Source: Fimicolochytrium jonesii
Lineage: Eukaryota
Length of the DNA stretch: 64,000 nt
NCBI RefSeq assembly: GCF_025526975.1
Contig: NW_026515680.1
Coordinates: 434,001 to 498,000 of the forward strand
Direction of reading: 5' to 3'
The translations under genes were made by a program, and so were the position numbers. Positions 36,004-57,852 of the stretch are shown in pieces. How positions within the stretch are numbered: position 1 is the stretch's first letter; each line of letters begins with the position of its first letter. Under the pieces are notes generated by a model. It searched no databases. It had not been told where the DNA came from and saw only the letters and a list, made by a program, of their open reading frames with translations.

Positions 36004-36547
36004 CTATGCTGTTTGTCTCCGTATCCACAAAGATTGTGGATGAGCTTTTTGCCATCGTTTGTAGGCAGGCGTGTAGCAAAGTGCGGATTCGGGTTCCCAA
36101 GTAGGGTCAGGATAACCAAGCCATTTGACTAGAAGATTTTGTACGGCGCGTCGCTCGTCGATGATGTCTTCTACAACCCATTCAGGTTGTCCGCGTTCTT
36201 CGATTGGTGGAGGAGGTTGTGGAACTGCACGTTGCGGATATTGCTCTTCGCGATGTGGTCGTAAAATATCGACGTGAAAGACGGGCCAGATGCCGCTGAT
36301 CTTCAATGGTGATAAATCGAGTTCGTAGGTATCAGGATGTGCTCCCAGTGCGATGATTTTGAATGGTCCGATCCACGTAGCTGAGTATCGAAGTCCACTT
36401 CGTGCGTCTACTTCTAGGTTGATTCCTTGTCGGTTCAGATCGACGAGGTTGCCAATTTTGTATGCGATTGGCGTTCAACCTTTGTCGTGTTGACGTGCGA
36501 ATTGATCTTGCGATCTCTGAAGGTTTTCGCGTACGATACGGGCGATG
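36004..36547 (-). pseudogene. Outer Gypsy integrase C-terminus: GPF module and chromodomain
   Basis: WIGPFKII, WPVFHVDILRP and PEWVVEDIIDERR..LVKWLGYPDPTWEP. Continues the integrase at 46545+ once the inner element is removed (..GQEDIARIVRENL..). Confidence 0.88.
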
Positions 36548-36971
36548 TGTGAACGTGATCAGGTTGACGGCGTACGAGGAGATGGGGAGATTCAAGGGAA
36601 GATTAGTATTTGTGCGCGCGTGACCAGGCGTGATCAGTAGTAGGATAGAGACACACCCCCTTCCCCCCCCCCCCCCACCATAAAATGGACAACACTGGCG
36701 TAGATTGCCCGGGGAGCATCTTACCGGCTATAGACTAGACCATAAGTTTGTACCATAGGAGCTCAATTGACCCAACTGACTAGCGTACCTACGCCTAGCA
36801 GTCCAGGGTTGCCAATATACGGAGTACGCCCAAGCGTGTCTACTTGTGTGGTGAGAATGGGGATTTAGTTGGTCTCTACCTTTTACCTTGCACTCTCCAC
36901 TAGTAGATCATCTCCACCCGCGAACGACCCGATTTAGGACCTATCTCAGGGAATAATCGACCACTTTCACA
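36548..36971 (+). repeat. 5' LTR of the inner Gypsy (424 bp)
   Basis: TG..CA ends. The last 132 bp (36840-36971) are repeated at 46409-46540 with 3 mismatches. Confidence 0.88.
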
Positions 36972-36974
36972 TTT

Positions 36975-36992
36975 TGGGGGCTCGGCCGGGAA
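36975..36992 (+). promoter_or_regulatory. Primer-binding site complementary to the tRNA-Pro 3' end
   Basis: TGGGGGCTCGGCCGGGAA, 3 nt after the LTR, matches the classical tRNA-Pro PBS TGGGGGCTCGTCCGGGAT at 16 of 18 positions. Confidence 0.8.
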
Positions 36993-37267
36993 CAAGGAGA
37001 GACCACCTTCAAGGAAAAACAAGGAAGGAATTACAAGGAATCTACGAGGTTATTTCCAAGATCGGATTGGCAAACCACATCTGCCACCTTACAAGAAACC
37101 TACCCACGCGTCGCATTCTCTCTTTCGCTACGGAGAAGCGAAGCACCAATCTCCACCAGAGATTGAAGATCAGTCGATAGATCTTCACGAAGATCAAGAT
37201 AGGGAAACTGGCCGAAGACGCAGAATTTATCGCCAGTCCCCGCTCCGCAAGCCGCTCTTCAAGCCGC

Positions 37268-39106
37268 TTGTCAACCAAGCAAGCAATTGCGGCGAGCAGC
37301 GCGACAGCCAAACGAGCAGCCTACGAGCGATACCGAAGTTCTCTGCTCCTCAAGAGAGAACGCAAGACTACAGGCAAAGCCAAGTCCACGGATTCCCCGT
37401 CCAAGGAATCCCAGTCCAAGGAATCCCAGTCCAAGGAATCTTCCTCTGAGGAATCCTCATCCGAGAATTTGTCGTCAAAACAAGGCCCATCATCCGGTGC
37501 GAACCCGTCCCAAACAACCACAAGACCAAGCAGCTTCCCAAGCGGCTTCCCAAGTACTCCACCAGCCCCAGTATCAAGGCCACCTGCTCAGGATTCCCCC
37601 GTGGACCCTCCAGCGCAACCCCCGTCTATCCATCCATCCATCCATCCAGCCACTGCTGCTGTTGCCCCGGCGACCTCACAGCAACAAGCCCGAGCGCAGA
37701 CTCCCGACCAAGAACGGGAGCAAGAGGACACCTGGTTCACGCCGGTTGCGAGAAGGAATCCCGAAATGGCAGACGGAACCCCCGCAGGAGTCCCCCGAGC
37801 GGCCTCGGCGGCCACGGTACTTGAAGCGGCCGCAAGAGGATTTGAGCGAGCCCACTGGAAGTTGAAGAATGACATCTCGGCGAGATTCAAAGGCAAGCCG
37901 GGCGAGGATGCATATGCATTCCTGGAGAGGCTGAGACAAGAAGCTCAAAGGGCCGTAGACCAAAAGTACTTCGAAAACCTCGACGACATGGTGCCCAAGT
38001 TCGGCCCCCTCTTCAAGGATGGAGCGAAGAAATGGTGGAGCAGTCTGTCGTCGACCGACATTCCATTTGAGCAATTCAAGGAACAATTCATGGCTCAATA
38101 CAACAAGAAGATACCTCCTATCTATCGCTCGGCGAAAGTAGCCAGTATGAAGAAGCTCAAGAAGGAAATGTCGCGCAACTTCGCCATTCGGATGAAAGAA
38201 GCCAATTCCCGCCTCGGCACCACTCCCCTAGACCTAGGCCAGCTCAAGTATGCCTTGTACCAAGGTCACAAGCCTCGTGAGCAAGACAAGATCGAGGAAG
38301 TCAAGATAGGGGGCAAGGACTGGTACGACAAGGCGGTGACCTTTGACCACTTTGCCGAAGACGCGTACCAAAGAATCGACAAGAAACGGCTCCGAAGCCG
38401 GCGCCACGCTCGTAGCTCCTCCTTGTCCTCCTCGGACTTGGAGTCGAGCTCTAGTGGCTCCTCCTCTGGTTCTTCCTCGGAAGAAGAACGCAGCTGTCGT
38501 CGCCGGAACAAGAAGAACAACAGGAGGTTCCGGCCCCAGCGACGAGGATCCCCGTCGCCCATTCTGAAGACGGCCGTCCAAGTTGCCCTGCCCAGTCCCA
38601 TGCCCACCGCCGACTTCGAGAAGCTAGCCAAACAGGCGGCGGAGAACGAGATAACCAAGTTCAAAGAGGAACTCCGCTTGACCGGTAGCCGACGTGGACA
38701 CATGGGACGGGCCATACACTTGATGGAATTTGACGATGACCGGGATGATTACGCCGGTTACGAGGCGTACATGATGGACCAACAACAAGGTCCATACCCC
38801 CGCCAGCCATATCCACGCAACGACTACGGCCAGCAGAGGCAGAACGACCTCAGTACGCAAGTACAGGAAGTCGTCAAGAAAGCGGTTGCCAAAATTGCCG
38901 CGCAAATGGCCAAGGTGCAGATTCACAATGGCCAGTCCTCAGGAGGATTACCAAGGATCGGAGACCGAAAGTGTTACGCCTGCGGAGGCGACCACTTCAA
39001 GGACGACGTGGACCGCGAGACGGGGCAACCAGTATGCCCCAAGAAGCAAAGCCCAGAGGCCGGACATGCCAATGCTGAGAAGCGGCATTTTCCCCGCCAG
39101 GGCTAG
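37268..39106 (+). CDS. Gag of the inner Gypsy (start codon uncertain)
   Basis: Capsid-like FKGKPGEDAYAFLERL..FKDGAKKWW..FEQFKEQF and an atypical zinc knuckle CYACGGDHFKDDVDRETGQPVC. Confidence 0.8.
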   Translation: MSTKQAIAASSATAKRAAYERYRSSLLLKRERKTTGKAKSTDSPSKESQSKESQSKESSSEESSSENLSSKQGPSSGANPSQTTTRPSSFPSGFPSTPPAPVSRPPAQDSPVDPPAQPPSIHPSIHPATAAVAPATSQQQARAQTPDQEREQEDTWFTPVARRNPEMADGTPAGVPRAASAATVLEAAARGFERAHWKLKNDISARFKGKPGEDAYAFLERLRQEAQRAVDQKYFENLDDMVPKFGPLFKDGAKKWWSSLSSTDIPFEQFKEQFMAQYNKKIPPIYRSAKVASMKKLKKEMSRNFAIRMKEANSRLGTTPLDLGQLKYALYQGHKPREQDKIEEVKIGGKDWYDKAVTFDHFAEDAYQRIDKKRLRSRRHARSSSLSSSDLESSSSGSSSGSSSEEERSCRRRNKKNNRRFRPQRRGSPSPILKTAVQVALPSPMPTADFEKLAKQAAENEITKFKEELRLTGSRRGHMGRAIHLMEFDDDRDDYAGYEAYMMDQQQGPYPRQPYPRNDYGQQRQNDLSTQVQEVVKKAVAKIAAQMAKVQIHNGQSSGGLPRIGDRKCYACGGDHFKDDVDRETGQPVCPKKQSPEAGHANAEKRHFPRQG

Positions 39107-39145
39107 GAGCCAAGAGCCTCCTAGTCCTGGAACCGACGGCTCTTG
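39085..39145 (+). promoter_or_regulatory. Predicted -1 ribosomal frameshift signal (slippery site plus H-type pseudoknot)
   Basis: G CAT TTT, a 5-nt spacer, a 13-bp stem CCAGGGCTAGGAG/CTCCTAGTCCTGG (one G-U pair), and loop CAAGAGC pairing with downstream GCTCTTG. The -1 frame is open 39079-39912. Confidence 0.7.
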
Positions 39146-39420
39146 AGCAGAAAGACCACGGAGAATCGCTGCCTCAAGGCCAGGATGAAAGTCTGACCTT
39201 TCCTGCTCGGTCACCATCAGAACCGAGAAGAGGCAGTGATTCCGACTCCGAAAGCGACTGGGGAACGCGCAGAGAACTAACGACAGCTGACAAATCATTA
39301 CAACCTCAACACCTGTCCAAGTCGGGAGAAGAAAAACCCGACTCGGAGGACCCTGACCGTACACGCTACCCGTCTCCGCCACCCGAAAAAGAACTCTACT
39401 TGATCAACTTGGTTGACAAG

Positions 39421-39720
39421 AACGATTGGCAATTGCACCCGGACATCTTTCAGCAACTCGATGACGGACCCTGGGGAGGCCCACACGGCCACACTGTGGA
39501 CCTCTTCGCCACGAAGCAGAACGCTCAAGTTTCAAGGTACTGCTCGGTCGACCAGACGGACACCAATGCAATTGCTCACGACGCCTTCAAGATTTGCTGG
39601 GACGCTGAGAATGGCTGGGTCAATCCCCCTTGGCTCGCCATTCAACAAGTGCTAGACAAGGTCGTCACGGACGGAGCGACCATTACGCTGATTACCCCCG
39701 TATGGCAAGAAGCTCCATGC
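39421..39720 (+). pseudogene. DIRS/Dam-type DNA N6-adenine methyltransferase domain at the N-terminus of pol; C-terminal end cut by a frameshift/deletion
   Basis: DWQLHPDIFQQL..WGGP..VDLFATKQNAQVSRYCS..DAFKICW..GWVNPPWLAIQQVLDK..TLITPVWQEAP contains the DLFA SAM-binding motif and the NPPW catalytic motif in the spacing typical of DIRS MT domains. Confidence 0.85.
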
Positions 39721-42700
39721 ACTTCCGAGACCGGTTGCGCCAAGCGTGGACCTTCAAGACCGGCCCCCGCCATGTCAAGCGCCTGCCATTCCAAGACTGC
39801 TACGCAGGGACTCTGTCCTTCCTACGCATTCCGTTCCGGACAATCCTCTCCATCCGTCGGCGCCCACCAGCAACAGCGGACAAAAAAGGGGAGGAGGACG
39901 CCAAGGCGGTAGCAATTGACACGGCCATATCGGACGCACACAAGAAGGGTTCACTGGAAGAGATAATGCTTCTGGAGAAGACGGTCAAGCGACGGAAACG
40001 CAAGGCATTGAAGAGAGAATTCCTCGACAGCCTTGTCTGGAAACAAGTCGGAACGGACGAGTACGATCCCAAGGCGCAATTCTTCCTGAAAGACTTGACG
40101 ATAGTCACGGGAGAATTGCTGAGCAAGGCAAGACCGTACCTCAATGTCCGAGAAAAGTACGAGATCACCGCGCATCCTGGGGACGACTTACCCACCCAGG
40201 ACACTTGGATGGCTCCGGTGGCTGGAAATGAAGAAAGATTCCACGCCTGGAAAGAGGCCCGAGAGCTGTCCCTCACGGACAGCCGCATCGTCATTCCTCC
40301 CGATGAAGGAAAAGAGGACACCCTCCTTGATTCACTTCATGCCCACGTTGAAAAGGACACGACAAGTAGTCCGGACCTACGCAAGATGTACACAATTGCG
40401 CAGATCTACGAGAAGATTGAGGACACGCCTCTCAACGAGCTCGTTGTCGAGACTGCAGCTAGTCTCAACGGCATGGACGCTACATTCTACATGATGCTGA
40501 AGACCAAGCATGGCTCGAAGATCAAGGCCACCAAGTATGAGCGCAAGCTGTTGGGGATTGGCGAAGGCCGTTCAATAGGCCACATTGAATTGAGAGTCAA
40601 GCCTGGCGTCAATGGAAGGCACAGTTACAAGTTGAAGTTCAACATCATACCCAACTTGGGACGATTGGTGCTTATCGGCATCCCAGGGCTCAATGCAATG
40701 GGGGCAGTCATGGACATGGAGAAGAGATCATTCGCCTTCCGACTACCAACCGAGGAGCAAATGACGACGCCCACGAAGATAACGCTAGAAGACCATCCCC
40801 TTCACACCCACCTCCCGACGATCGCTCCGCTAGGGCCATCACGCTACAACGTAGTTATCAAGCAAGATCGAGTGGTGTTGAAACCAATGGCGGTGACGCA
40901 CGTACGGGTCGGCGGAACGAAGCAAGGAATCCCCGGAACGACGCACCTAGTCGAAGGCAGCAAGGCGTTAGGCGAGTCAGGCATATGGTGTGCGAACCAA
41001 CTTGGAAAGGCCGACGAGAACGGAGAATGGCTGTACCCATTCGCAAATCTCACGCCCCGGAAGCGCATCCTTTGGAAGAATCATGTCGTCGGAACAAACA
41101 CCGCCAGCGACCACGACTTACGGGTAGAACCGGTACCTGAGGCGTATCTGACGGAGGAGAAGCTGAGCGGATGGTTGACCGAAAACCTGAAGAATGACCT
41201 ACCGCCACCGCCGCCCGCATGGCCGAGCAGCCCAAAGGCCGGAGGCCAACGCCATTGGATGATGCCCGGATTGAGAAGCACCACCGGCTCAGCATTCTAC
41301 ACGCTGCAGAGCCAAGAGGAAGTGAAGGCCTGTGGAACGGATGAGCCGGAAGAGGGACCAGTGGAGGTGAAAGGGTTGGGGCAGGAGGAAATTGGCGAAT
41401 TGGCAAAGACATCGGCCATTCACAAGATGAAGGATTTGGACGCGGCCGCTACCCCTCTGGAGGACGCGCAATCCTACACGTCACCAGCCGCCCGCCAAGG
41501 ACGAGACGAAATAGGAGCAATGGCGCCTCGAGCACACCTGGCACCGGAAGAAGACAAAGCATTGCGGGACGTACTGCTAGCAAATGCGGAAGCCTTCGAC
41601 TCCCAAATTCCGGACAAGCCGAACATTCCGTACGAACACCACATGGAGATCATGCCGGGGACTCTTCCCATCGCCCACCCTCCACGCCGACAGGGCCAGC
41701 AGAAGGAGAAGGTTCTACGCGAGCACACCGACACGATGCTGAAGGACAACCTCATCTGACCCAGTAGAACACCATGGGCCGCTCCGGTGTTGCTAGTTAA
41801 AAAGCCGGGGGGTGGACTAAGGTTCGTCACTGACTACCGTGAACTCAACGCAAAGACGATACCCGACTCCTATCCGCTGCCTCGAGTCGACTCGACCATT
41901 GAATTCCTCACCGGCAAAAAGTGGTTCACAACCATGGACCTATGCTGGGGTTTCTGGCAGATACTGATCAAGGAAGAGCACAAGCACCTCACAGCCTTCT
42001 GTACACCCCATGGGCTGTTCGAGTACAACAAACTCCCGTTCGGACTCAAGAATTCTCCGCCTACCTTCCAACGCGTGATGGACGCGGTCCTGGCAGGACT
42101 GAAGTACAGCTTCTGCCTGGTCTACGTGGACGACATCATTGTGTTCTCCGACACGTTCGAGGAGCACATGACCCATGTCTCCCAAGTCCTCACCCGCATT
42201 CAAGAATCTGGACTACGAGTGAAGCTGGAGAAGTGCCATTTCGCGGTACACGCAATTCACTTCCTCGGCAAGAAGGTAGACGGCCAAGGGTTATCAGTAG
42301 ACAAAGCCAAAGTGACCAAGATCCTCGATGTCAAACCCCCAAAGGAAAAGCGTCTGTTGCAACGCCTCCTCGCAATGTCTGTTTACCACCATCAGCACAT
42401 TAAGAGGTACGGCCAAATTGCTCGACCACTGTACGACTTGCTCAAGAACGACGCAGTGTGGAAATGGGGACCAGAAGAGCAAAAGGCATTCGAGGAATTG
42501 CGACAGGGAATGGCGGACGCGGCAATCCTGGAATTCCCGGAAGAAGGATGCCCGCTGGTCCTCAAGTGCGACGCGAGCAAACTCGGACTTGGAGCCGCGC
42601 TCTACAAGGTTAAGGGCGGAAAGGAGATCCCTCTGGTCTTCATCTGCAAGTCGCTAACGGACGCAGAGAAGCAATACTCGCACACGGAGAGAAAGGGATT

Positions 42701-44705
42701 GGCAATTCACTGGGCCGTGACAAAGCTGGAGTACTACATCTGGGGAAAACCATTCACGGTGGAAACAGATCACTCTGCGCTGCTGGCACTGGCCAAGCAC
42801 GGAGACATGGCAGGAAAGTGGGCGCGATGGAGATACGCGCTCCAAGACTACCAGATGGAGATTCGGTACAAAGCCGGCAGCTCACGGTCCCACGCAGTAC
42901 CGGACTTCATATCGAGAGCCTTGTTGGAAGAGAAAAGGTCGATAGGAACCCAGACGGAGGCAATTGAAGAAGCGTCTGGAGAGAGGAAAGACGAGGTGTT
43001 CCTGATGGGGGGAGAAGCGGCCGCCGCGGAGAAGACTTCAGCAACACCAGGTGTCATTACCCTGGAAGGAGCGTTCGCCAAGGAGATTGAACGCAAGCAG
43101 AAGGAGGACTACCGGACAACATCCTGACAAAGCAACTCATGCTACGGACGATATCCGACCTACGCGTCCAGGACGGCAGACTCTATCAAATTCAAGAGTT
43201 TTGCCAACCCGGGTACCGACGCCAGATGTTCAAACAGATTGTCGTACCAGCCAACTTGCGAAGACGATGCCTGGAGCTCTGCCACGACGACCTGTTGGCA
43301 GGACATCTGGGCAGAGACAAAACGTACAGCAGACTCCAACAGTCCTTCTGGTGGCCGGAATGCGTGGCGGACATGATCAATCACCTTGCCAGTTGCGTCA
43401 AATGCAATCAGCACAAGCCGGGAATGCCGAAGTCTGCAAGAGGAGGAGAGATGGACCCAATCGTCATTGGAGACGTGTGGTGGCGGGTCGGAATGGACTT
43501 GCTTGGACCTTTGCCGGCTACAAGGAATACGAAGTTCAAATACGTACTCGTTGTCATCGACTACGCCAGCAAATTCAGCTTCGCAATTCCATTGAAGGAC
43601 GCAAAGGCGTACATGGTTGCCCGGGCTCTTATGGAGCACGTGTTCACCATCTTCGGGGTCCCCGGAGTGATAACGTCGGACCGTGGACAGCCCTTCACGA
43701 GCGAGGTTCCGAAGGCGCTCCTGAAACTACTGGGGGCCGCCCCAGCATTAGCATTCATGGGAGGCGATTGGGAAAGGAGCAATGCCGGTTGGGGACTTGC
43801 AAGCGGAGATTGTCAGGCACCTGCAGATTGCATGGGATTTGGCCAAGGAGAACGTCGCCAAAGCCCAAGCACGACAAAAGGCGTGGTACGACAAGAACTC
43901 CGAGAAGACAAGCGCCCAGCTAGGAGAACAAGTCTGGCTGGCAATTCCCCAGTTTCGTAAGTCGACCAACGTGGAAAATGTGACGGCCATCAAGAAGTTC
44001 GCTGCCAAATGGAGTGGACCACACCGGGTTGTAGGTGTCGGCGACAACGGCCTCACCTACAAGCTTATGGAACTCCTCTTGCCAATTGAAGTCATCTACC
44101 AGACAGCCCATATCCGGCGCATGCGACCATTCACCGCCAGGCGACCGCTAGACCCGACGGAACTAATTGAGATGGACGAAGAGGAAATTTTGACAGCTCA
44201 ATTGGCACAGGCAGCGACGGCTCGAGTCTTGAAGAAGACGCCATTCAGGCGTAGAGCGTACGGGACGTCCCACGAACTGAAGAAGCGAGCGCTCGACCCG
44301 GACACGGACTCGGAAGACTCTGATGGCAATGTCGGGGATGAATGGGAGGTCAAGAAGATCATCGACCACCGTCAGGACGACAATGGGAAGTGGGAATTCG
44401 AAGGCCACTGGAAAAACTGGAACACAGGGCACGACAGCTGGGTGGTACTCTCGGACTTCCGAGGGCAGGAGCTACTGGATACGTACTGTCGCGCAAACGG
44501 CATCACCGTTGGGGACGAATCACCTACGGTGGACGCCCAGACCGGCGATGACAGCATGCAATTACGCCGGTCCACGAGACAATCCACGCAGAAGTCTCCA
44601 AAAAGGGGAGGAGATAAGAGCGCGGATACTTCAGAGGCCGCAGAGCGGAGGCAGAACAAAGGAGGGAACAGAGGGTCAGCTGGTCGGCACAGGAGCAGGG
44701 AATGA
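39721..44705 (+). pseudogene. Inner Gypsy pol: protease, spacer, RT, RNase H, integrase (core partly deleted), GPY/F, chromodomain
   Basis: Protease LVVETAASLN..VLIGIPGL; RT PWAAPVLLVKK, FGLKNSP and YVDD; RNase H CDASKLGLGA; integrase HHCC, GMDLLGP and SDRG; WSGPHRV; chromodomain EWEVKKIIDHR..HWKNW..DSWV (44340-44500). Stop at 41757 and frame breaks near 43105 and 43740. Confidence 0.9.
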
Positions 44706-44946
44706 GAAAAAAAAAAAAGGGAAAAAAGCACGCAACCGCGGACCAACCGGCATCTTCCACGTTGGTGGAGTACCCAGCGGCCCAGCGGGAGCAAGACGTG
44801 CAGCAAGAGAATGCTCAGCAGGACAGAAGGGAGAGAACGCCCAGAACCCAAGGGAATTCCCCCTCTTCGGAAATGCATAAATAGCGGGCATCAGAAGCCG
44901 CTTCCCTCAACCCCCACCAACCCTCAACCGACCACCGTCCCCCAGC

Positions 44947-46423
44947 ATGCTCCTACGCTACCCCTTCCCCCCTCTCGACCCCAAACCGGTACTCCCAGAA
45001 CTCCGACCATCACGTCCCGAAGATCCTCCACCACCTCCTCAAGAAGATCCAGCGTCGCAGACCTGTCCAATGCGGTCTCGAAGCCGCCTATCCTGCGACC
45101 AACAACCAGGACCGAGAATCAGCGCACGAAATCGCCGGTTCCCGATACCCCTGTCCGCCCCGTGTCCCCCACGCACCAATCAAGGTCGACTCTCCCCCTC
45201 AGCTCGACAGACGGTTCAGAGAAGCCACCGGCTCCCGTACTCCCGTTCCAGTGAAGGCAACGGGGAACAAACGTCCGCCAATCCGCTTGCCCAGAATCAC
45301 CGTGCGAAATGCCGGCGACACCCCTGTCGACACCCGCAAGAAAAGGAAGGTGTTGGACACGCCCGAAGAACGACGAAGAGGCGAAGCAATCATTGGCCCC
45401 GCCACTCTCAGCGTCTCCGGCCTGGACCCGGAAGAGGACGAGTTCACGAGGGAGACCCTGATGAGGGACGTGGAATACCAGCCCGGAAATAAAGAGGAGT
45501 ACTACGGAGCAGAGAAGAACGGGGCCGTCTGCATATGCGAAAACCCGGACAATAGCGCTTCCATTTATGGTCGCGTTGTCCAATGCGAACTCGAAGACCT
45601 CTGATGTGGAAGCCAATTCTACCCCCCAGAATGCCTCAACAATCAGAGACTTCCCCACCCCCAGGAAGACGAAGAAGTTCTGCAGGACTACTACGCCCAG
45701 TACAACTTTGTTTGCCCACCTTGCCTAGAAGACCTCCCGGAGAATGCGGAGACCGACGGCAAGATCACTGCGACCAAGCACCCGAACGTTGGCAAGACGA
45801 GGGGACTGCGTCTGGCGCCCTACGACCATGAGAACCGCAAGTGGAAGACCGACTTCAAGATGAAGACCGGGGAGGGGGATATAGAGGAAGGCCGACCGTA
45901 CCGGGTCTCAGGGAGGGACATCGAAACCATCATGCTCCCGAGCCAATACAAGGAGTATACGGACGTCCCATCCACCATGTACACCCGTGTGCACGGCCTC
46001 TTCCCCCACCCGGTGCTGACCTCGCGCTCGAGAGCCCACAACCACATGCAAGACTGGGAAAAGGAATTGATCTTGAAGCAAGCCGTCTTTGTCGTCATTA
46101 CCAACGTGGAGCCGCACTACACTCAATGTGCCAAGGCCCTCCGCAAAGAGCATGGCATCCATGAGACTCGGGACGACCTAGAGGACCCAGAAGCACTGCT
46201 CCTCCAAGCCGCCTTCCCCCGCATCGACCAGCCCAACTACCTTATCTACGCAGGCCCCAACCTTTGGGAACTCGAGATCATCGTTGCGAGCTTTGGCCCT
46301 AAACCCAAAGACAAGCCGGAGGACAAGGAGCTGACGTTTGGCATGCCAAGAGTAGAGTCTGAATTGTGGTCAAGCCTGGCGTTGAAATGCTTGCCACCGG
46401 CGACCTTGCTACTTGTGTGGTGA
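44947..46423 (+). pseudogene. ORF3 of the inner Gypsy containing a PHD finger (45530-45724); one internal TGA; 3' end lost by deletion into the LTR
   Basis: Frame 2 is open from 44885 to 46423 apart from TGA at 45602. It reads VCICENPD..IYGRVVQCELEDL*CGSQFYPPECL..FVCPPC. Start codon is uncertain (ATG 44947 is in another frame). Confidence 0.7.
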
Positions 46424-46540
46424 GAATAGGGATTTAGTTGGTCTCTACCTTTTACCTTGCACTCTCCACAAGTAGATCATCTCCACCCGCGAACGACCCG
46501 ATTTAGGACCTATCTCAGGGAATAATCAACCACTTTCACA
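46409..46540 (+). repeat. Truncated 3' LTR of the inner Gypsy
   Basis: 129/132 identity to 36840-36971. Ends TTTCACA and is followed by the TSD GATG. Confidence 0.9.
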
Positions 46541-49363
46541 GATGTCTTCCTGCCCTTTCTTGAAGAGTTCGATTTCGTTTCGATCTACAGCTTGAAGTTT
46601 GAGTTCTTGTCCTTTGAGTGTTGGATTCCAACCCGGGAGGATTGGAGAGCGTCCGAGATCTACTTTGAATGGCGATAAACCTTCATATTCCTCCCTCGGA
46701 GCGGTATTATATGCGAATTCGATTAAAGGCAATAGTTTCTTCCAATTGCTTTTGTCGTAGTTGAGGTATTGCTTCCAAATCCTTTTCAGGGTTTGGATGG
46801 CTCGCTCAACTTTGCCGTCGGTTTGCTGATGACGAGCCGTAGCGAATTCGTGTTTTACACCGAGGAGAATGTCGATCGCGAGGAAGAAGTCGGGTTGAAG
46901 TGCGCGAGGTTCGCGATCCGTAACGAAGACCTTTGGCGTACCGACATGTTTCCAAACATGATCTAGAAAAACTTGGGCTAGTTCACGTCCAGTAATTGTC
47001 TTCTTGATTGGTGTCAGAATCACACGTCCGGAAAAGAAATCAATGCAGACAAGACCAGAGTTTGTTTCATCTACTTTGAAAATGTCGAATCCGATCGTGT
47101 GCCATCTTCAAAAAGGTATAGGAAGAGGTCGTATCGACGATGACCAGGTTTGAATTGTCGACAGGATTTGCAAGTTCCAACGTTTTTGATAACGTCGGAG
47201 CGTACGGTAGGCCAGTAATAGTCCGTAAGAATTCTCGCAAGAGTCTTCTTAACACCAAGATGTCCTCCGGTGGCAAGTTCGTCATGGAATTTCCGCAAGA
47301 TCTTTGGGCGAATGTCTTCAGGAACATATAAACGTCCTTCGTGTCGTACTAATCCATTTTCAAACTATAACGGAGTTCTTTCGAAGTTTTCTCGTGTTGA
47401 GGCTTTCGAGAAATTTCATTGAGATAATCCGAATATGGATCTTCGCGTAGCGCTTTTTTCCATTCTTCTTCTGAGCAGGTAGGTGAGTTTTGTGGATCGT
47501 CTGTCGTAGCATTGGAGGAAGGTTTGTTGACAAGCATGTTGCTGATCTGCGTATGCATGTCGAGGCGTCGTTGACAATCTACACACCGAGGCGCATAGAT
47601 TGGATTGCGGGAGAGCATGTCGGCGATATGATTCCATTGTCCAGGTAAATACGGGATGTCAAAATCATACTCTTGTAGCTTCTCTTCCCAATTGGCTTGT
47701 CTTCTGCTCAAATGGGGGTGCGTTTGGATGAATTCGAGTCCCTTGCGACCGCTAAAACATCGGAAGTAACAACCGATGAGATATGGTCAATTGGCGACCA
47801 ACATCTTGACAAGAGCTAATAGCTCCTGTTCGGGCGTAGGATATCGTGTTTCTGCGTCCTTCATCTTTCTAGAAAAGAAGACCACAGGCCGGAGCCGAGG
47901 TAACTTCTTCCATTGTCCGACGAGAGTAGGCAGATTCGTAGGGATCGTTTCATCGCCAGAAGGTTGTCCAATCCAGCCAGCGATAGCGTAGCCTGATGAG
48001 TTGGTGTAGACATAAATTGGCTTGGTTTTATTGATTGTTGCTAGCGTAGGCGCATTGATCAACGCTTCTTTCAACTTTTGAAATGCCTCTTGTTGCTCAG
48101 AACCCCATCGAAATTTCACTTTCGAAGATTGAATACTTGATAGGGGCAGAGCGATGTCCAAATAACCTTGTACAAAGTCGAGGAAGTAGTTTGTGAACCC
48201 GAGAAAGCTTTGAACTCCTTTTGTTGACTTTGGAGTAGCCCAATCCTTGATAGCTAGGATTTTTGAGGGCGCGATGCGAACACCATGTCTTCCGACAATA
48301 TGTCCACACCATTCAAGTTCTTCTTTAGCCCATACGCACTTTGAAGGCTTGATGAAAAGGGCGTGTTCCTCAAGTTTCTTCAGGATACAATCGACGTGTT
48401 CCCGATGTTCGGCTAAGGTCTTTGAGAAAATGAAAATGTCGTGCAAGTAGGTAGCGAGGAATTCGTCGTAATCTTTATGGAAGATCTTATTCATAAGACG
48501 TTGAAGCGCAGCAGGTGCGTTGGTAAGCCCGAACGGCATGACCAAATACTTGAAATGTCCAAAGCGAGTTTGTATTGCCGTTTTTTCCCGATCTTGTTTC
48601 CGTATAAGAAGACGATGGTATGCTTCTCGAATATCAATAAGCGTAAACCATTTACAATCTTGAATCCGATCCCTCATCTCACGAATATTGGGTAAAGGAG
48701 TGCGATCTTTCTTGATGACGGCGTTGAGACCTCGGTAGTCCCAACAGATGCGTAATCCGCCATCTTTCTTTTTCGCAAAGACAACACTAGCTCCCCAGGG
48801 ACTTGAGGAGTGTTGTACCCATCCTTTTTCGAGCATTGAGGTGATTTGTTTCTTGAGTTCAGCGAGTTCTTCTTTGTTCATGTGCCAAAGAGGATGCCAA
48901 ACAGGTTCAGCACCTTCAGTGAGTTCGATCTTGAAATTATCTTCTCTGCGATCAGGGGGTAGACCTTCCGGTTCCTTGAAGAGCGTATTGACGTATTTAT
49001 TGAGGATATCCTTGAGATGTCCTGGAGTTCCTTTAAGCTCTTGAGGAGTGTCCGGTATTTCGTTAAGAGTGAGGCGACAGACCGTGTCTTTTTCAAACTT
49101 GTTCCGTCGCCAAGCCTCATTGAATCGCTTAGAAGTCATTTCTATGACTTGAGGATTGCGAAGGGCATTGGCTTGAGCGAATCGAGATACATAATGAGGT
49201 GCGGCTTGTAGAGGACGAGTATCCACAGGTTTAATGATCCAAACAGGTTGAAGGGTCTTTTGTCATAGACCGGATCTCGTTGTACGTCGAAGTAAGGGTT
49301 GTTGTGTTTCGGGATGGTATTTGACGTCTTCCCAGTTTCTTGGAGTTCTTTCGCACTTGATGG

Positions 49364-49525
49364 TGTCAAGGGAATCGTCCCGATCGCTCGGAACGCCCCG
49401 GAGAGGTGGTACAGTCACAGAAAGAAGAGAAAAATGTTTGGGGAAGGTAGGAATCGATCCCACGCCACCTGGGTGAGAGCCAGGTGTCTTAACCACTAAG
49501 CCAAGATGTGTGTGTTCCCGTTACA
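49364..49525 (-). mobile_element. 162-bp solo LTR (TRIM-like) containing a tRNA-Glu(CTC)-derived Pol III cassette
   Basis: Minus strand TGTAAC..TTGACA with 5-bp TSD GATGG (49359-49363, 49526-49530). Removing it restores the host pol frame (PQSVTI/KCERTP). Confidence 0.85.
49430..49510 (-). ncRNA. tRNA-Glu(CTC)-like sequence with A box, B box and T5 terminator; canonical acceptor stem absent
   Basis: A box TGGCTTAGTGG (49503-49493), anticodon arm CCTGG-CTCTCAC-CCAGG (49484-49468), T arm GTGGG-ATCGATT-CCTAC, and TTTTT at 49434-49430. Confidence 0.75.
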
Positions 49526-50001
49526 GATGGTGACAGACTGCGGTGCGTTTGGTATAGGGCCGTAAGTGGTCCAGCAAAGGATAGGTAAGGTACTCATCGA
49601 GAATTGTTCAGCGTAATTAAAGAAAAGCCAGAAAGGCATTCCAATAATAGCGTCGTAAGCCAGATTATCGACTAGCCAGGGAAGTTGTCCAACAAAGAAA
49701 AGGGACTGAGATTTGAGATCCCATAGATCTAACTTTTCCGAAACGACCGTGTCGAGAATCATGTATGATTCTTTGTCGGCCAGCCATATCTGCTTCGGTT
49801 CGATACGTTTCTTGGGAAATTTGTGCTTCTCAACGAATGCCTTATCAAGGAATAACCCAGTTGCGCCGCTATCGAAAAGAACACAAGCAAACTTGTTTCC
49901 GATGCGACAATGAGAGACCCAGAGTACAGCAGACAGTGGTTCGAAGGCAGGTTTATCGGTAGGATCGTATGTTGTAGGCTGAGCAGAGCTACCGAGGGGC
50001 T

Positions 50002-51081
50002 CTATCGACCTTGGAAAAAACTCGAAGATTGATTTGTAGTAGTATTCGTAGTATTCGCAGAGTTGACGGCGTCACCCAGAATTTCCGTAATGCGTGACCC
50101 AGCATCAACCTGATGGGCTGAACCTTGTTGTTGATTAGGTTGGCGACTGCGCTGCGGAGTTTGAGCGCCACGACCGCGCTGTCGAAAACCACCGCGTCGG
50201 TTCTGGGTTTGCGAGCCTTGCGGTCAATTTTCGGGATTTGACCAGCATTCAACTCTCCAATGTCTCATTTTGTTACAAAGGGGACAAGGAGTCGTTGGAC
50301 GTTGACGAGGAACGTGAGTAGTTTGCCATTGTCCACGTCGACAAAAGGGCTGTTGATGTTGGTAGGGAACTTGACCTGTAGTGAGACGTCTCACTCCAGG
50401 GGGATAGTATGACGTACCAAGGGCATTAAGCCCAGAGGTCATATCATCTAAGTCTTGCTCAAATTCCGTAATTCGAGGATTGGTGTAAGGGGCAAATCGT
50501 CCGCCACGACCACCGCCTTGACTACCTCGACCGCGACTGGCTCCACGGACGCCATGAGCACTTGTTGCCGAGGCAATTGGACGAGGTGTATTGGCTTGGT
50601 TGCCGTCAGTGAACCCATGAGCCACATGAGCTCGACGGGCTGCAGTGATAGCTTGATCGAGAGTGATAGGGGTGTTGATGTTGGTAGTGCTTGAGACTTC
50701 GAAGTTCGTAACGGCTTCAGCGAGATAATGACCGATTACTGTATTCTTGAGAAGACCGGCCTTGAAGTATCGAATCTGATCGATAAGGGGAATGGTGCCT
50801 TGAGTGTTATCGAGACGATGAGCGGCTTCGAGCTCATTATTGGTGTCTTGAAACTCCTTGATATTTTTTTCGAGAGAGTCACCGAGCTTGAGGCCGGAGA
50901 GCTTGAGCTCAATAGTATTACGCAAGTTGCGAGGATAAAAGTGAGCAACAAGAGCCGTTTGAAAAGCTGTCCAACTCGCGGGGGCGCCGGTGGCGTAAGT
51001 CGTGTTGTACCACTCGAGAGCAGTACCCTTGAGGTAGGTAGTGAGCGTAGGAGCGTACTCTGCCATAGTAAAGGCTATGGC
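50002..51081 (-). pseudogene. Outer Gypsy gag, 5'-truncated, with a premature TGA at 50226-50224
   Basis: YLKGTALEWY..SWTAFQTALVAHFYP and zinc knuckle CPLCNKMRHWRVEC. The frame continues past the TGA to TAG at 50004-50002. Confidence 0.85.
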
Positions 51082-51235
51082 GTTGGCAGTGGGGCTTGCG
51101 GGGCTTCAGTGAGGCTTGGCGCCTTATGTAATGTATCACCGAGAGCTCGGGTGGCCAGCCCGGGTCTTGGATCAAATAGAAGTAAAGAGGTATGATATGA
51201 AATACAAGTGAAGATGAGATATCCCCGACACGCAG

Positions 51236-52796
51236 CCCGTTCCCTTTGAGAGCTCTGAAGGCGAGAGCACTATCTCCGGTCTTCATTGCGCACACTGCAC
51301 TCGAGAACTCGACTTGTGCTCCGTCCTCAGTGAGCTGGGCTACTGAGATGAGGTTCTTTTCAAGTTAGGGAACAAACCAGATGTTTCGAAGGGTGCCAGC
51401 ATGCTCCCTGTGTGTTGTGATCGTAATGAAGTCCATTCCAATGGCTAGAACTGACCGGTTGTCAGCTAGCTGGACCTGGATCTCATTGTCCAGCGTCATC
51501 CAGTTGTGCAGCCATTCATTGACATGTGTCATGTGACAGGAAGCTCCTGAATTGGTAATCCAGCGTTCCGGGCTGATTTCACTGCGTTTAGGAAGAGGAA
51601 CACGGTTCCTTGGCTAGCCTGCTGTGACTCAACTTGATTTGCATTGTGGGCTTGAGCTAGCTCTCATTTGAGCTTCTTGCACTTGTTCTTCCAATGCCTT
51701 TCAATGCCACATTGATAACACTTTCCCTTCTTCCTGGCGAACCTGGCTGAGACCCTGGCCTCCTGCTGGCGCCCACCATCCCCAATGAACGCTTTTCCAG
51801 TCAATCTGACTGGTTTGGAGTTCTCTTGCACCTAGCTTCTCTATTTAGAAGTCTGGCCATCAAGAACACCATGTCTAAGTCATAGTCATAAGACCGAATG
51901 GTTTGTTCCCAAACTCAAAAAGACCCGCATCTCAGTAGCCCAGCTGCCTGGGATTGGAGCACAAGTTGAGTGCTCAAGTGCAGAACGCACAATCAAGATC
52001 ATAGATGATGCTCTAGCCCATGAAGGCTCAAGCTATACCTGAGCACGCCTACTAAGCAGGAGTACTTCACAGCAGTTCCTTCCATATTTGGCATCAGAGA
52101 CTCAGTCATCTGAATGCTCAAGACGTTCAGAAGCTCACCAACTGCTACCAACACAATATCAGAGTCACTGGACTCCCTGAAGGTCACATCTGCAAAGTCT
52201 GCACGCGTTCCAAGGAGTCCAGAGCTCCCTTTCCAAAGAAACAAGCTACCTGAGCCACAGAAGTATTGGCATTCATCTACACTGACTTCTGTGGGCCCAT
52301 AAGGATGTTTACCTTTGGCGGCTGCACCTATTTTGCATTACTCATTGATAACAAGTGAAGAACCTTTGACGCATGGGAACAGTACAAGGCTCTTATACAG
52401 AAGCAGACTGGGATGCCAATCAAAGTCCTCAGATCTGACAAAGGACGCAAATACAAATCCACCCAGTTCACCATCGCCCTCAGAAGGGCTGGAATACAAC
52501 ACCAGCGCGCTGCTACCAACATTCCACAGCTGAATGGTGTAGCGGAAGGCATGAACCGCACTCTGACTGAGGTTGCACGGTGCCTACTCACCCAGGCTGG
52601 TCTTGGACATAAATATTGGGCAGACGCCCTCCTTGCACCCGGGCATATTCGAAAGACAACTTCAAGATACCATATGAAGCATTCTTTGGTCGCAAGCCCA
52701 CCCGTCTTCACCTCAGAGTGCTTGGATACATAGCCTATGCAGTGGTTCTCAAGAAAAGACGAGGAAAGGTTTGGCTACAGCTCCTCCAGCATAGCC
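51236..52796. mobile_element. Ty1/Copia fragments: minus-strand gag/protease (51236-~51895) joined to plus-strand GAG-pre-integrase/integrase (~51897-52796)
   Basis: Minus: VPNLKKNLISVAQL and WITNSGASCHMT. Plus: HIWHQRL.HLN, IKVLRSDKG and PQLNGVAEGMNRTL. Confidence 0.8.
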
Positions 52797-53710
52797 TGTT
52801 ATGGACGACGCGCCCATACCATAAGCTTACCTCATGACAGCACACTGAGAGCCGCCAATGTCAAACGCCAATGTCAATGTCAGTGTCAATGTCTGTGTCA
52901 ATGTCAGTGTCAATGTCAATGTCAATGCCACTCCCCCTCTCTCCTCTCATTTCGCCAATCCTCCCGCAATATCGCCACTCCTCCTCTCTCCTCTCATTTC
53001 GCCAATCCTCCCGCAATACTCGCCACTCCTCCTCTCTCCTTTCATTTTGCCAATCCCCCCACGGCTTCTCCACACCTCCCACTACTTCTCCATAACCAGC
53101 AGCTGTAGCAATGCCCTCTACGCTCGCCACGGCCACTCTAGGAGCATAGCTGGCGCCCCCCCCAGTCCTCTCTTGTTGTTGTTGTTGTTCTTTGATCTGC
53201 TGGGTTGTCTATCTATAAATAGCCGGCCTCTCTTCGTCCATTGCCTTCCTCCCCAGCAGATCAACACCAGTTCTTCTCATCTCTTGTTCTGGTCCTTGTC
53301 TCTTGTTTCGCCAATACAATCTCCTGTCGCCCATCGCTCTCGCCTTGTCTTCTCTACTTCGCTTCCGCCTCAGTCGTCGAGATCATAAGAGTTTGATCTG
53401 CTGCAACACTGCGAAGTTCAGAACCCGTCCAGCCCTGCATCCGACAAACCTTTTTCGCCATGTCCCAACCCGAATCCGTACCTTTCACCGCCGAGCAATG
53501 GAACGATATGTGCCAAGCCATCGCCGCCTTGCAAAGCCAAAACGCCAACTTGCAGGCCAACCTAGCGCAAGCCCAAGCCGACGCACAAGCTGCCCAGAGC
53601 ATCGCCGCCCAGGTTCAAGCCGATACGTACACCCGCCCCCAAGTCACCAACCCTGCTCTGGAGCCAAGAATCAGCTCGCCCGAGAAGTTTGATGGTACCC
53701 ACAGCAAACT
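52797..53710 (+). mobile_element. 5' LTR (52797-53390), self-priming-type PBS and truncated gag of a Tf1/sushi-like Gypsy
   Basis: LTR TGTTATG..CATAAGA with TATA at 53214. PBS TTGATCTGCTG (53393-53403) is complementary to CAGCAGATCAA (53254-53264). Gag MSQPE..EPRISSPEKFDGTHSKL starts at 53460. Confidence 0.8.
52857..53060. repeat. (TGTCAA/TGTCAG)n microsatellite and three 47-48-bp repeats within the LTR U3 (mirrored at 63050-63253)
   Basis: Visible directly. Repeat unit GCCACTCCTCCTCTCTCCTCTCATTTCGCCAATCCTCCCGCAATA. Confidence 0.9.
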
Positions 53711-56700: not shown

Positions 56701-56759
56701 ATCCGCGAATTAGGCTTAGTGACCTCTCAGATACACCTATGTCAGCTAAGGTTTCAATA
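53707..56759 (+). mobile_element. Degenerate Copia: inverted gag fragment, then plus-strand pre-integrase, RT, RNase H, PPT and 3' LTR (56145-56759); integrase core deleted
   Basis: RYKARLVAQGFSQEEG, QMDVSTAFLN, LYVDNL, RSTTGYLF, TALSSTEGEY and TKHIDFRYHFIRE. PPT GAGAGGGAG followed by LTR TATTGA..TCAATA. Confidence 0.9.
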
Positions 56760-57852
56760 TGGATTGCACCAAGTCGAACTGGATGGTTTTCGGTGGCTTT
56801 AAGATAGGAGAGAATGCGTTTGACAGCCTCCCAGTGTTCTTTGCCTGGGTTGGCTAAAAACTGGCTCACAGCTCCTACTGCTTGAGCTATGTCTGGTCTT
56901 GTACCAATTATCGCATAGGTCAGACGGCCTACAACGGCTCGGTAGAGCTTATCCTGCATCTCTGCAGTCTCTTCAGGCGTTTGAGGCACCATTTCTTTGG
57001 TGAGAGGGCTTCCTACGATGCTAGGTGTTGCCATTGCCTTGGAATTGATCATGCCATATGGTTCGAAGCATTTTCGATGTACCCAGTCTGGTTGAGCAGC
57101 AGGAGTTGTTTGGCTCGGTCTCTGGTGAAAAGTAGGCCCAGGAAATTGTGTAGGGCACCAAGATCCCGCATTGCCTATGCCTCCTGAAGTTCCTTGGCCC
57201 TGAAGTGGTCGAGGTCGAGTCTCTTGTTGCTCATATGTATCAGATACTCGACATAAGGGATCAGGATGAGTAGCCATCCCTCAAAGAGTCTGATATGAAT
57301 GCAATGGTGGGAATCAAATCTTGTGAAGCCTTTCTCAATGAGAGTGCTGTGGATTTCTATGTTCCATTCCCTTGGAGCTTGTTTACGACCATAGAGGGTC
57401 TTCTTGAGCTTGAGTATGAGATGCTCTTCTCCAGGCTTGATGTAGCCAGGTGGCTGCTTCATATAGAGCTCCTCACTGAGTGTCGGGTTTCAGGAATGTG
57501 GTGGATATGTCCATTTGGTCCTTTCGAGGTCTTGAACTGCTCCCCATGAGAGCAGTAGTCTGGTGGTGTTGAACTTGGCCACTGGGGCAAAAGTCCTGTT
57601 GTAGTGCACTCCCTCTTCTTGTGAGAACCCTTGGGCAACTAGTCAGGCCTTGTAACGTTTGATAATGCCATCAGCATTCATCTTGCTCTTGTAGACCCCC
57701 TTGCATCCAACAAGGTTGCGGTCTTTGGGCGCTGGGCAGAACTCCCAGGTCCCATTCTTGACAAGTGATTCATGTTCAGCGTCAGAATCACTCGGGTTCA
57801 ATGCTTGCTTGAAGGTTATGGGCTCTGTGTGCAGCACTTTGGTTGCGAGAGC
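56760..57852 (-). mobile_element. Degenerate Copia RT fragment (element A), interrupted at both ends by other Copia LTRs
   Basis: EPITFKQAL, KNGTWE, IKRYKA, KTLYGRKQAPREW and GTRPDIAQAVG, with frameshifts. Confidence 0.85.

What the first reader, a model, noticed from the sequence alone, without database searches (positions are those of the whole stretch)
36548..46540. Gypsy LTR retrotransposon carrying its own chromatin toolkit: N6-adenine MTase + chromodomain + PHD finger
Seen: one TSD-bounded element (GATG, TGTGAA..TTCACA, tRNA-Pro PBS) encodes gag, pol ordered MT-PR-RT-RH-IN-chromo, and a third ORF with a PHD finger. Established: this MT family is normally found downstream of RT/RNase H in tyrosine-recombinase DIRS elements, not in DDE-integrase Gypsy elements. 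PHD fingers and chromodomains read methylated histone tails, and many early-diverging fungi carry abundant 6mA associated with active genes. Inference: the element may write adenine methylation on its own cDNA or integrated copy (mimicking active chromatin or marking self) while using two readers for targeting or anti-silencing. I do not recognise this three-domain combination from described LTR families. This copy is dead, so function must be judged from relatives.
Basis: partly seen in the sequence, partly recalled or inferred. Interest (0 to 1): 0.9.

Follow-up and report, generated by a model that had tools for sequence, protein, structure and literature searches.

The report
Chytrid retrotransposon with methylase and TET
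A broken jumping gene, likely from a chytrid fungus, carries an adenine-methyltransferase-like domain, a chromodomain and a third gene whose longer relatives likely encode a TET-type DNA-demethylase domain, so the family would likely carry its own tools to look like active DNA and resist silencing.

Summary
The element is real: a dead Ty3/Gypsy LTR retrotransposon with a GATG target-site duplication, nested in another Gypsy. Its 3' LTR is only the last 132 of 424 bp. The Dam-like domain (NPPW) ahead of the protease is a family trait, shared by relatives at 44-64% identity, and is not DIRS debris. Dam-plus-chromodomain LTR elements were described in a May 2026 preprint (algae, ichthyosporeans, Euglena; no fungi in its main text), and this scan noted Dam-like domains in chytrid Gypsy elements on other DNA. 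The new part is ORF3, which is cut off here. Five Fimicolochytrium jonesii gene models (72-84% identical) carry the PHD-like finger and, in the three longest, some 300-435 further residues. That part scores as a TET/JBP dioxygenase in the ESM Atlas (0.96; 25 of 30 hits) and shows H-x-N...H...R-x-S. Pfam, HMM, HHalign and AlphaFold did not confirm it, and the iron-binding Asp is Asn in 4 of 4 copies. A 2025 survey found no TET-encoding retrotransposon. F. jonesii has 1.84% 6mA. Likely function: mark itself with 6mA and bind or oxidise 5mC. Catalysis is untested, and ORF3-LTR linkage is seen in this one copy only.

The parts
36544..36547 (.). left target-site duplication GATG
36548..36971 (+). 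5' LTR, 424 bp, TG...CA
36975..36992 (+). primer-binding-site-like sequence (tRNA-Pro type; label recalled)
37181..39106 (+). gag ORF (stop to stop), Retrotrans_gag E 5.6e-5, just under cut-off
39412..39717 (+). Dam-like N6-adenine methyltransferase domain, NPPW at 39622-39633; C-terminal about 52 aa deleted at about 39720 with frameshift
40380..40780 (+). aspartic-protease-like segment, site ETAA (DSAA in P0121 and P0002)
41667..42900 (+). reverse transcriptase (YVDD) and RNase H; premature TGA at 41757-41759
43130..44130 (+). integrase (H2C2 finger and core), about 92 aa deleted at about 43755 with frameshift
44334..44490 (+). chromodomain; W/W/W at the three positions that align with aromatic residues of CDYL2
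44702..46408 (+). ORF3, truncated and frameshifted. An ATG overlaps the pol stop (ATGA, 44702-44705); annotated relatives start at about 45012; the copy ends at about residue 447 of the 880-aa relative P0274
45530..45724 (+). PHD-like C4HC3 finger; here with TGA at 45602 and Pro for the His
45860..46408 (+). start of the region that in relatives continues into the likely TET/JBP domain; the motif-bearing core is deleted in this copy
46409..46540 (+). 3' LTR remnant, last 132 bp, 129 of 132 identical to the 5' LTR
46541..46544 (.). right target-site duplication GATG

Best explanation
This is a dead copy of a Ty3/Gypsy LTR retrotransposon, likely of a Spizellomycetales chytrid, whose family carries a Dam-like adenine methyltransferase at the start of pol, a chromodomain at its end, and a third gene with a PHD-like finger and a likely TET/JBP-type domain, which together would likely protect new copies from silencing. 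Shown: the anatomy, the conservation of Dam ahead of the protease across diverged relatives, and the multi-copy ORF3. Inferred step 1: the protease would release the Dam domain inside the particle, where it would put 6mA on the cDNA or RNA:DNA hybrid; host maintenance methylation would then keep that active mark (model of the 2026 preprint). Inferred step 2: the chromodomain, with its aromatic positions kept, would steer integration to methyl-lysine-marked, repeat-rich chromatin; this copy sits inside another Gypsy. Inferred step 3: the ORF3 protein would be tethered to chromatin by its PHD-like finger and would bind 5mC, oxidising it if the His-x-Asn site still holds iron and otherwise shielding it. 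The residue five after the first His is Asp or Asn in 3 of 4 copies, the kind that in TET2, NgTet1 and CMD1 selects 5mC and blocks 6mA, so ORF3 would not erase the element's own 6mA.
For: Dam family-level: 4 hits at E<=4e-32 (55-64% identity), then a gap to 4e-19, among the 150 listed. P0121 and P0145 carry Dam and the same protease in one ORF; P0016, P0273 and P0022 carry Dam ahead of RT-RH-IN in one ORF. NPPW is kept in 6 of 6 rows of the element's Dam clade, which has support 97. RT groups with P0001 and P0002 (support 99) on the Gypsy side; these share their longest-contig length with Dam proteins P0123 (11,016) and P0122 (28,653), which suggests the same contigs. ORF3: 5 relatives at 72-84% on 5 contigs of F. 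jonesii, 81-85% to each other for the four compared. TET/JBP: Atlas features 0.96, 212 of 256 shared, 25 of 30 hits Tet_JBP for P0275 residues 330-700; 3 of 5 Atlas structure rows for P0274 are clusters with Tet_JBP, TM 0.51-0.61 by row. MAFFT lines up N587, H595, G615, H643 and R661-x-S663 with phage TET/JBP. +5 residue rule from PMC11040006 passages. Host context: F. jonesii 1.84% 6mA, an exception among chytrids. 7 of 13 C>T/G>A changes private to this copy are at CpG against 25% expected (p=0.027), and Copia-like repeats in the window have CpG o/e 0.55; both hint at 5mC on repeats.
Against: No sequence profile confirmed TET: Pfam gave no Tet_JBP on 5 of 5 relatives; HHalign probability 0.1-0.4%; an HMM of 21 phage TETs gave no hit; a chained PSSM found the motif in 3 of the 3 long relatives but 15 of 300 shuffles and 12 of 120 other proteins scored as high as P0275. 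Both AlphaFold models were poor (mean pLDDT 27 and 41). The Atlas structure rows are under the tool's bar for naming a family, and its two searches count as one source. The iron-binding Asp is Asn in 4 of 4 copies. Eukaryotic DAMs lack the first catalytic half and were inactive in E. coli; Iyer et al. judge DIRS MTases likely inactive. No DNA around any other ORF3 copy was obtainable, so ORF3 inside LTRs is seen once. No ORF3 relative turned up on the contigs of P0001 or P0002 (word-seeded, 281-896 aa only). The host species is inferred, not shown.
Confidence: 0.55

Rival explanations
1. Same architecture, but neither enzyme domain is catalytic: the Dam fold binds nucleic acid in the particle, and the TET-like fold with His-x-Asn only binds or masks methylated DNA or is a decaying relic.
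For: His-x-Asn in 4 of 4 ORF3 copies; no activity of eukaryotic DAMs in E. coli; DIRS MTases called likely inactive; earlier scan notes report chytrid Gypsy Dam domains without the motif.
Against: NPPW is kept in 6 of 6 rows of this Dam clade at 44-64% identity; DAM-LTR copies are enriched for 6mA in three species; both His, the upstream Asn and an R-x-S are kept in the three long ORF3 copies.
Confidence: 0.3
2. ORF3 belongs to another mobile element, such as a TET-bearing DNA transposon, and ended up in this one Gypsy copy; the Gypsy family is only Dam plus chromodomain.
For: All described transposon TET/JBP genes in fungi are in DNA transposons; the 3' junction is deleted; no flanking DNA of other copies was obtained; no ORF3 hit in the contigs of the nearest pol relatives.
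Against: ORF3 is on the same strand; an ATG overlaps the pol stop; AT skew 0.25 against 0.21-0.28 for gag and pol, though a host gene also gives 0.17; it aligns to P0275 in one tblastn block from residue 53 to the cut; no transposase frame lies between pol and the LTR.
Confidence: 0.15
3. The C-terminal half of ORF3 is not TET/JBP but another beta-helix or an unrelated fold, and the Atlas match is a language-model look-alike.
For: Negative Pfam, HMM, HHalign, PDB-sequence and AlphaFold results; the Atlas score calibration was not measured for protein parts.
Against: Score 0.96 is reached about once in 100 by shuffled whole proteins; 25 of 30 hits are one family; motif order and spacing fit; the PE-type fungal TETs were also found only by structure, HHpred E 1.4.
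Confidence: 0.12
4. The Dam domain is debris of a DIRS element nested in this copy.
For: Most of the 150 listed Dam relatives that have an RT carry it upstream of Dam, as DIRS do.
Against: Same Dam-protease fusion in P0121 and P0145, collinear with this copy; own clade with support 97.
Confidence: 0.02

Closest known systems
DAM-LTR retrotransposons and EpiLTRs (Fernandez-Moreno et al., bioRxiv 10.64898/2026.05.21.726589; whole main text read; figures and supplements not seen)
   Same: Ty3/Gypsy LTR element with a DIRS-type Dam domain keeping NPP, with a chromodomain, in a 6mA-rich host; same proposed mechanism.
   Different: The five lineages named are chlorophyte, chloro-ochrophyte, ichthyosporean, Pyropia and Euglena; 'fung' and 'chytrid' occur 0 times in the main text. 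Here Dam precedes the protease; Abeoforma Dam proteins P0229 and P0264 fall outside this clade. EpiLTRs add a cytosine methyltransferase; this family likely adds a TET-like domain and a PHD-like finger.
TET/JBP genes of fungal DNA transposons, PU, AG and PE types (Kojima 2025, PMC12730594; abstract, sections 2.1, 3.2.3, 3.4 and passages read)
   Same: Transposon-borne, multi-copy, very diverged TET-like gene; nearest Atlas clusters are basidiomycete and ascomycete Tet_JBP proteins.
   Different: [quoted passage not shown] Motif here is His-x-Asn, not HxD or HxE, and a PHD-like finger is fused upstream.
Orchid Ty3/Gypsy elements with an AlkB-type m6A RNA demethylase (PMC9289625; abstract only)
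   Same: Gypsy element with an extra ORF encoding a 2OG-Fe(II) nucleic-acid dioxygenase.
   Different: AlkB family, RNA substrate, plants; no Dam mentioned in the abstract.
DIRS1-type retrotransposons with an MT domain (Iyer et al., PMC4738411; passages)
   Same: Same methyltransferase-like domain family.
   Different: RT is Gypsy-type with a DDE integrase and direct LTRs with a TSD; Dam lies before RT, not after RNase H.
Chromodomain-bearing Gypsy elements (chromoviruses) and PHD-bearing retrotransposons (passages)
   Same: Chromodomain at the integrase C-terminus; PHD as a retrotransposon accessory domain.
   Different: RT does not group with the chromodomain-bearing host element or P0141; no named chromovirus reference was in the tree.

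Membership tests
Ty3/Gypsy LTR retrotransposon | Direct LTRs with TG...CA ends and a 4-6 bp TSD | tested here: met
   3' LTR truncated to 132 bp
Ty3/Gypsy LTR retrotransposon | pol order PR-RT-RH-IN with DDE integrase | tested here: met
Ty3/Gypsy LTR retrotransposon | RT groups with Gypsy, not DIRS-like, RTs | tested here: met
   quick tree, 125 of 178 RT cores, split support 99; the DIRS-like label rests on domain order, not on named references
DAM-LTR (2026 preprint) | Eukaryotic Dam domain with Asn-Pro-Pro inside a non-DIRS LTR element | tested here: met
DAM-LTR (2026 preprint) | Belongs to one of the five named lineages | tested here: inconclusive
   Only Abeoforma references were at hand (P0229, P0264) and they fall apart from this clade; the preprint's supplements were not seen
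DAM-LTR (2026 preprint) | Copies enriched for 6mA; host encodes AMT1 | not testable with these tools
   No genome or reads held; probable host has 1.84% 6mA
EpiLTR | Dam plus a cytosine methyltransferase plus a chromodomain | tested here: not met
   No DNMT hit in the element's ORFs or in ORF3 relatives; this copy has deletions
Chromovirus clade | Chromodomain at the integrase C-terminus | tested here: met
Chromovirus clade | RT falls in the chromovirus clade | tested here: inconclusive
   Does not join the chromodomain-bearing host element and P0141; no named references
TET/JBP dioxygenase (ORF3 of relatives) | Double-stranded beta-helix fold like TET/JBP | tested here: inconclusive
   Atlas features 0.96 and structure rows support it; own AlphaFold models too poor
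TET/JBP dioxygenase (ORF3 of relatives) | Match to a TET/JBP sequence profile | tested here: not met
   at background level
TET/JBP dioxygenase (ORF3 of relatives) | HxD/E...H iron triad | tested here: not met
   Both His present in 3 of 3 long copies, but Asn for Asp in 4 of 4 copies that cover the site
TET/JBP dioxygenase (ORF3 of relatives) | 2-oxoglutarate-binding Arg after the second His | tested here: inconclusive
   R-x-S 18 residues after the His aligns but not; another Arg lies 11 after
TET/JBP dioxygenase (ORF3 of relatives) | Oxidises 5mC or thymine in DNA | not testable with these tools
   needs an assay
PHD finger | C4HC3 zinc-ligand pattern | tested here: met
   Whole in P0274; one or more ligands changed in P0276, P0277 and this copy; out of frame in P0275
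PHD finger | Profile match above cut-off; methyl-lysine reading | tested here: inconclusive
   PHD_NSD E 0.0038-0.081, below cut-off; no PDB match
DIRS retrotransposon | Tyrosine recombinase, MT after RNase H, no TSD | tested here: not met

The most novel reading that the evidence does not exclude
The first retrotransposon family to encode a TET/JBP-type protein, and the first mobile element to pair a writer of the active mark (Dam, 6mA) with an eraser or shield for the silent mark (TET-like, 5mC) plus two histone readers: a complete 'look active, undo silencing' kit inside one pair of LTRs, and a sixth, fungal DAM-LTR lineage in one of the few 6mA-rich chytrids.
Probability: 0.6. Interest if true: 0.85.

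Novelty: new variant of a known kind. Interest (0 to 1): 0.72.

Why it matters
Two recent surveys leave gaps that this family would fill. One found Dam-bearing LTR elements mostly in hosts with the 6mA machinery but names no fungal lineage. The other states that no retrotransposon encodes a TET/JBP enzyme and offers a reason why. A fungal element with both would extend the 6mA link to an independent lineage and overturn that absence. It also makes the open question of what these Dam domains do directly testable, because long-read 6mA data already exist for F. jonesii: 6mA and 5mC over this family can be compared with other LTR families in the same genome.

Tried and rejected
No whole genome is held. 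No sequencing run was listed, so copy number, expression and methylation stay open. A word-seeded search with the Dam region among 486-2000 aa proteins found nothing; the full HMMER search did. Locus searches gave no usable DNA of relatives: metagenomes with RT, 1 distant locus at 36%; viral contigs with ORF3, Dam and P0002, none; prokaryote genomes with Dam and P0001, none. tblastn of ORF3 against phages gave 3 chance hits; PHROGs nothing useful for ORF3. AlphaFold on 5 close relatives failed (pLDDT 27). A second model on an alignment padded with 35 phage TET/JBP rows, a partly circular set-up, reached only about 30 over the core; fold searches with it were uninformative and are not evidence either way. 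HHalign, a phage-TET HMM and a chained PSSM did not separate ORF3 from background. PDB sequence searches with ORF3 and its finger gave only chance rows. ORF3 relatives matched no other stored protein. No ApT or GATC depletion stands out in the element. Iyer et al. 2014 on fungal TET/JBP transposons was not held. Repbase, GyDB and Dfam could not be searched. No complex was predicted, as no protein-protein claim is made. Scan look-ups by place and by sequence found nothing.
Full report
1. The observation. The element spans 36548-46540 between two GATG copies. The 5' LTR is 424 bp. Only its last 132 bp recur at the 3' end, 129 of 132 identical. The element interrupts the integrase of a minus-strand Gypsy whose frame resumes across the duplication, so the borders are real. 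Pfam finds gag, Dam (E 0.0013, under cut-off), RT, RNase H, integrase and chromodomain in that order. A protease-like segment between Dam and RT is seen by alignment only; it reads ETAA where P0121 and P0002 read DSAA. The copy is dead: about 52 residues are deleted from Dam and about 92 from the integrase, each with a frameshift, and stops lie in RT and in the finger.

2. The host. No genome or reads are held. Flanking genes include Cep120 and a hydin-like protein, and two host proteins are in NCBI on a 787-kb contig. ORF3 is 72-84% identical to five gene models of Fimicolochytrium jonesii, a Spizellomycetales chytrid; four of these are 81-85% identical to each other. The host is therefore likely that species or a close relative; this is an inference. 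Lax et al. 2024 (PMC11258239; passages and one supplementary row read) list F. jonesii among the few chytrids with high 6mA, 1.84%.

3. The Dam domain is a family trait. HMMER over 1.84 billion representatives gave four hits at E<=4e-32 and then a gap. P0121 carries Dam, the same protease and the start of RT in one frame, collinear with this copy; P0145 carries Dam and the protease. The two nearest RT relatives, P0001 (67%) and P0002 (62%), end in chromodomains and share their longest-contig lengths with Dam proteins P0123 and P0122; that they lie on the same contigs is inferred from this. In a quick RT tree (125 of 178 RT cores: all with Dam, the two from the window, P0001-P0066 and P0072) the element joins P0001 and P0002 with support 99 on the Gypsy side. 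In a quick Dam tree (69 of 155 domains: those with an RT or named above) it joins P0121-P0124 and P0145 with support 97. NPPW is kept in all six. One-off DIRS debris is thus rejected.

4. ORF3 is the surprise. The window holds about the first 447 residues of an 880-residue protein. The relatives restore the C4HC3 pattern, whole in P0274; the profile match stays weak. In the three longest relatives the protein runs on for some 300-435 residues. For P0275 residues 330-700 the ESM Atlas gives 0.96 with 212 of 256 features shared, and 25 of 30 hits are Tet_JBP clusters, the top three fungal. For P0274, 3 of 5 structure rows are clusters with Tet_JBP, under the tool's naming bar. MAFFT aligns N587, H595, G615, H643 and R661-x-S663 of P0275 with phage TET/JBP proteins (the last Arg not). 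Against this: Pfam, HHalign and an HMM of 21 phage TETs give nothing; a chained PSSM picks the same motif in 3 of 3 long relatives but only at background level (15 of 300 shuffles); both AlphaFold models are unusable. The phage profile did find TET2, CMD1 and NgTet1 in the PDB, so it is a valid but distant probe, and Kojima's PE-type TETs also needed structure to be seen. I put the TET-like fold at about 0.85. The iron-binding Asp is Asn in 4 of 4 copies, so membership in the catalytic family is not met; the claim is 'TET-like'. The residue at His+5 is Asp, Asp, Asn and Ala in the four copies; in TET2, NgTet1 and CMD1 an Asn or Asp there binds 5mC and blocks 6mA (PMC11040006, passages).

5. 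Does ORF3 belong to the element? It is inside the LTRs in this copy, on the same strand, with an ATG overlapping the pol stop, a similar AT skew and one unbroken tblastn block against P0275. It is multi-copy on five contigs. But no DNA around other copies could be fetched, and no ORF3 relative was found with P0001 or P0002. I put linkage at about 0.8.

6. How it most likely works. Shown: anatomy and conservation. Inferred: Dam would mark the new DNA copy with 6mA, the active mark in such hosts, as the preprint proposes. The chromodomain has Trp at the three positions that align with aromatic residues of CDYL2 (their role as a methyl-lysine cage is recalled) and would guide integration to repeat-rich chromatin. 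ORF3 would bind, and perhaps oxidise, 5mC on the integrated copy. That repeats here carry 5mC is hinted by CpG-biased changes in this copy (7 of 13, p=0.027) and CpG loss in nearby Copia-like repeats; the host Gypsy shows no CpG loss. The main rival is that both enzyme folds are non-catalytic binders: eukaryotic DAMs were inactive in E. coli, and ORF3 lacks the Asp.

7. What is known. Dam in LTR elements, with chromodomains, is described in bioRxiv 10.64898/2026.05.21.726589 (whole main text read; figures and supplements not seen, and they may list fungal cases). Its introduction cites TET among domains acquired by 'retroelements'; the reference list is not in the text held, so I could not check that citation. 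[quoted passage not shown] PHD fingers in retrotransposons are called widespread (passages). An orchid Gypsy carries an AlkB demethylase (abstract). Ten full-text searches (listings seen) showed no TET-encoding retrotransposon and no fungal DAM-LTR; the library lacks most subscription papers, Iyer et al. 2014 was not held, and Repbase was not searchable. Other papers opened: PMC4738411, PMC6338049, PMC13297926, PMC6673714 and bioRxiv 10.1101/2021.11.30.470311, passages only. Earlier notes of this scan report Dam-like domains before the protease in chytrid Gypsy elements, there without the catalytic motif, and fungal Gypsy elements with PhyH-like or JmjC third genes; these are unchecked, and I found the preprint and the TET lead before reading them.

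8. Verdict. A new variant of a known kind: a fungal DAM-LTR with an intact NPPW motif and, likely, a PHD-TET-like third gene. Interest 0.72.

Noticed in passing
window 36004-36474, 46541-51105, minus strand: The target is another Gypsy element (gag, RT, RH, IN, SH3, chromodomain). Its RT is closest (60%) to P0141, a chromodomain Gypsy with Dam between RNase H and integrase. The translated frame at 47349-47786 shows no NPP motif; it was not scanned with Pfam.
   Followed up: partly
window 51400-64000: Copia-like RT pieces in tandem with a 2,228-bp period, inside large inverted repeats (52111-53388 and 62722-63999, 99%); CpG o/e 0.55 with raised TpG and CpA.
   Followed up: partly
window 44599-44615: A purine tract (AAAAAGGGGAGGAGA) near the end of pol, upstream of ORF3; it could be the original polypurine tract from before ORF3 was captured (inference).
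   Followed up: no
P0022, P0016, P0273: A second Gypsy clade with Dam before the protease; P0022 also has a dUTPase ahead of Dam, and all three have a weak C-terminal chromodomain signal or none. Its Dam neighbours this element's clade with low support (78).
   Followed up: partly
P0072: A 2,089-aa Gypsy polyprotein with a PHD finger fused after the integrase.
   Followed up: no
window 3064-29110: Host genes: Mpv17/PMP22, a PhyH-type dioxygenase (4157-5191, minus), Cep120 and a hydin/CFAP65-like ciliary protein, consistent with a flagellated host.
   Followed up: partly
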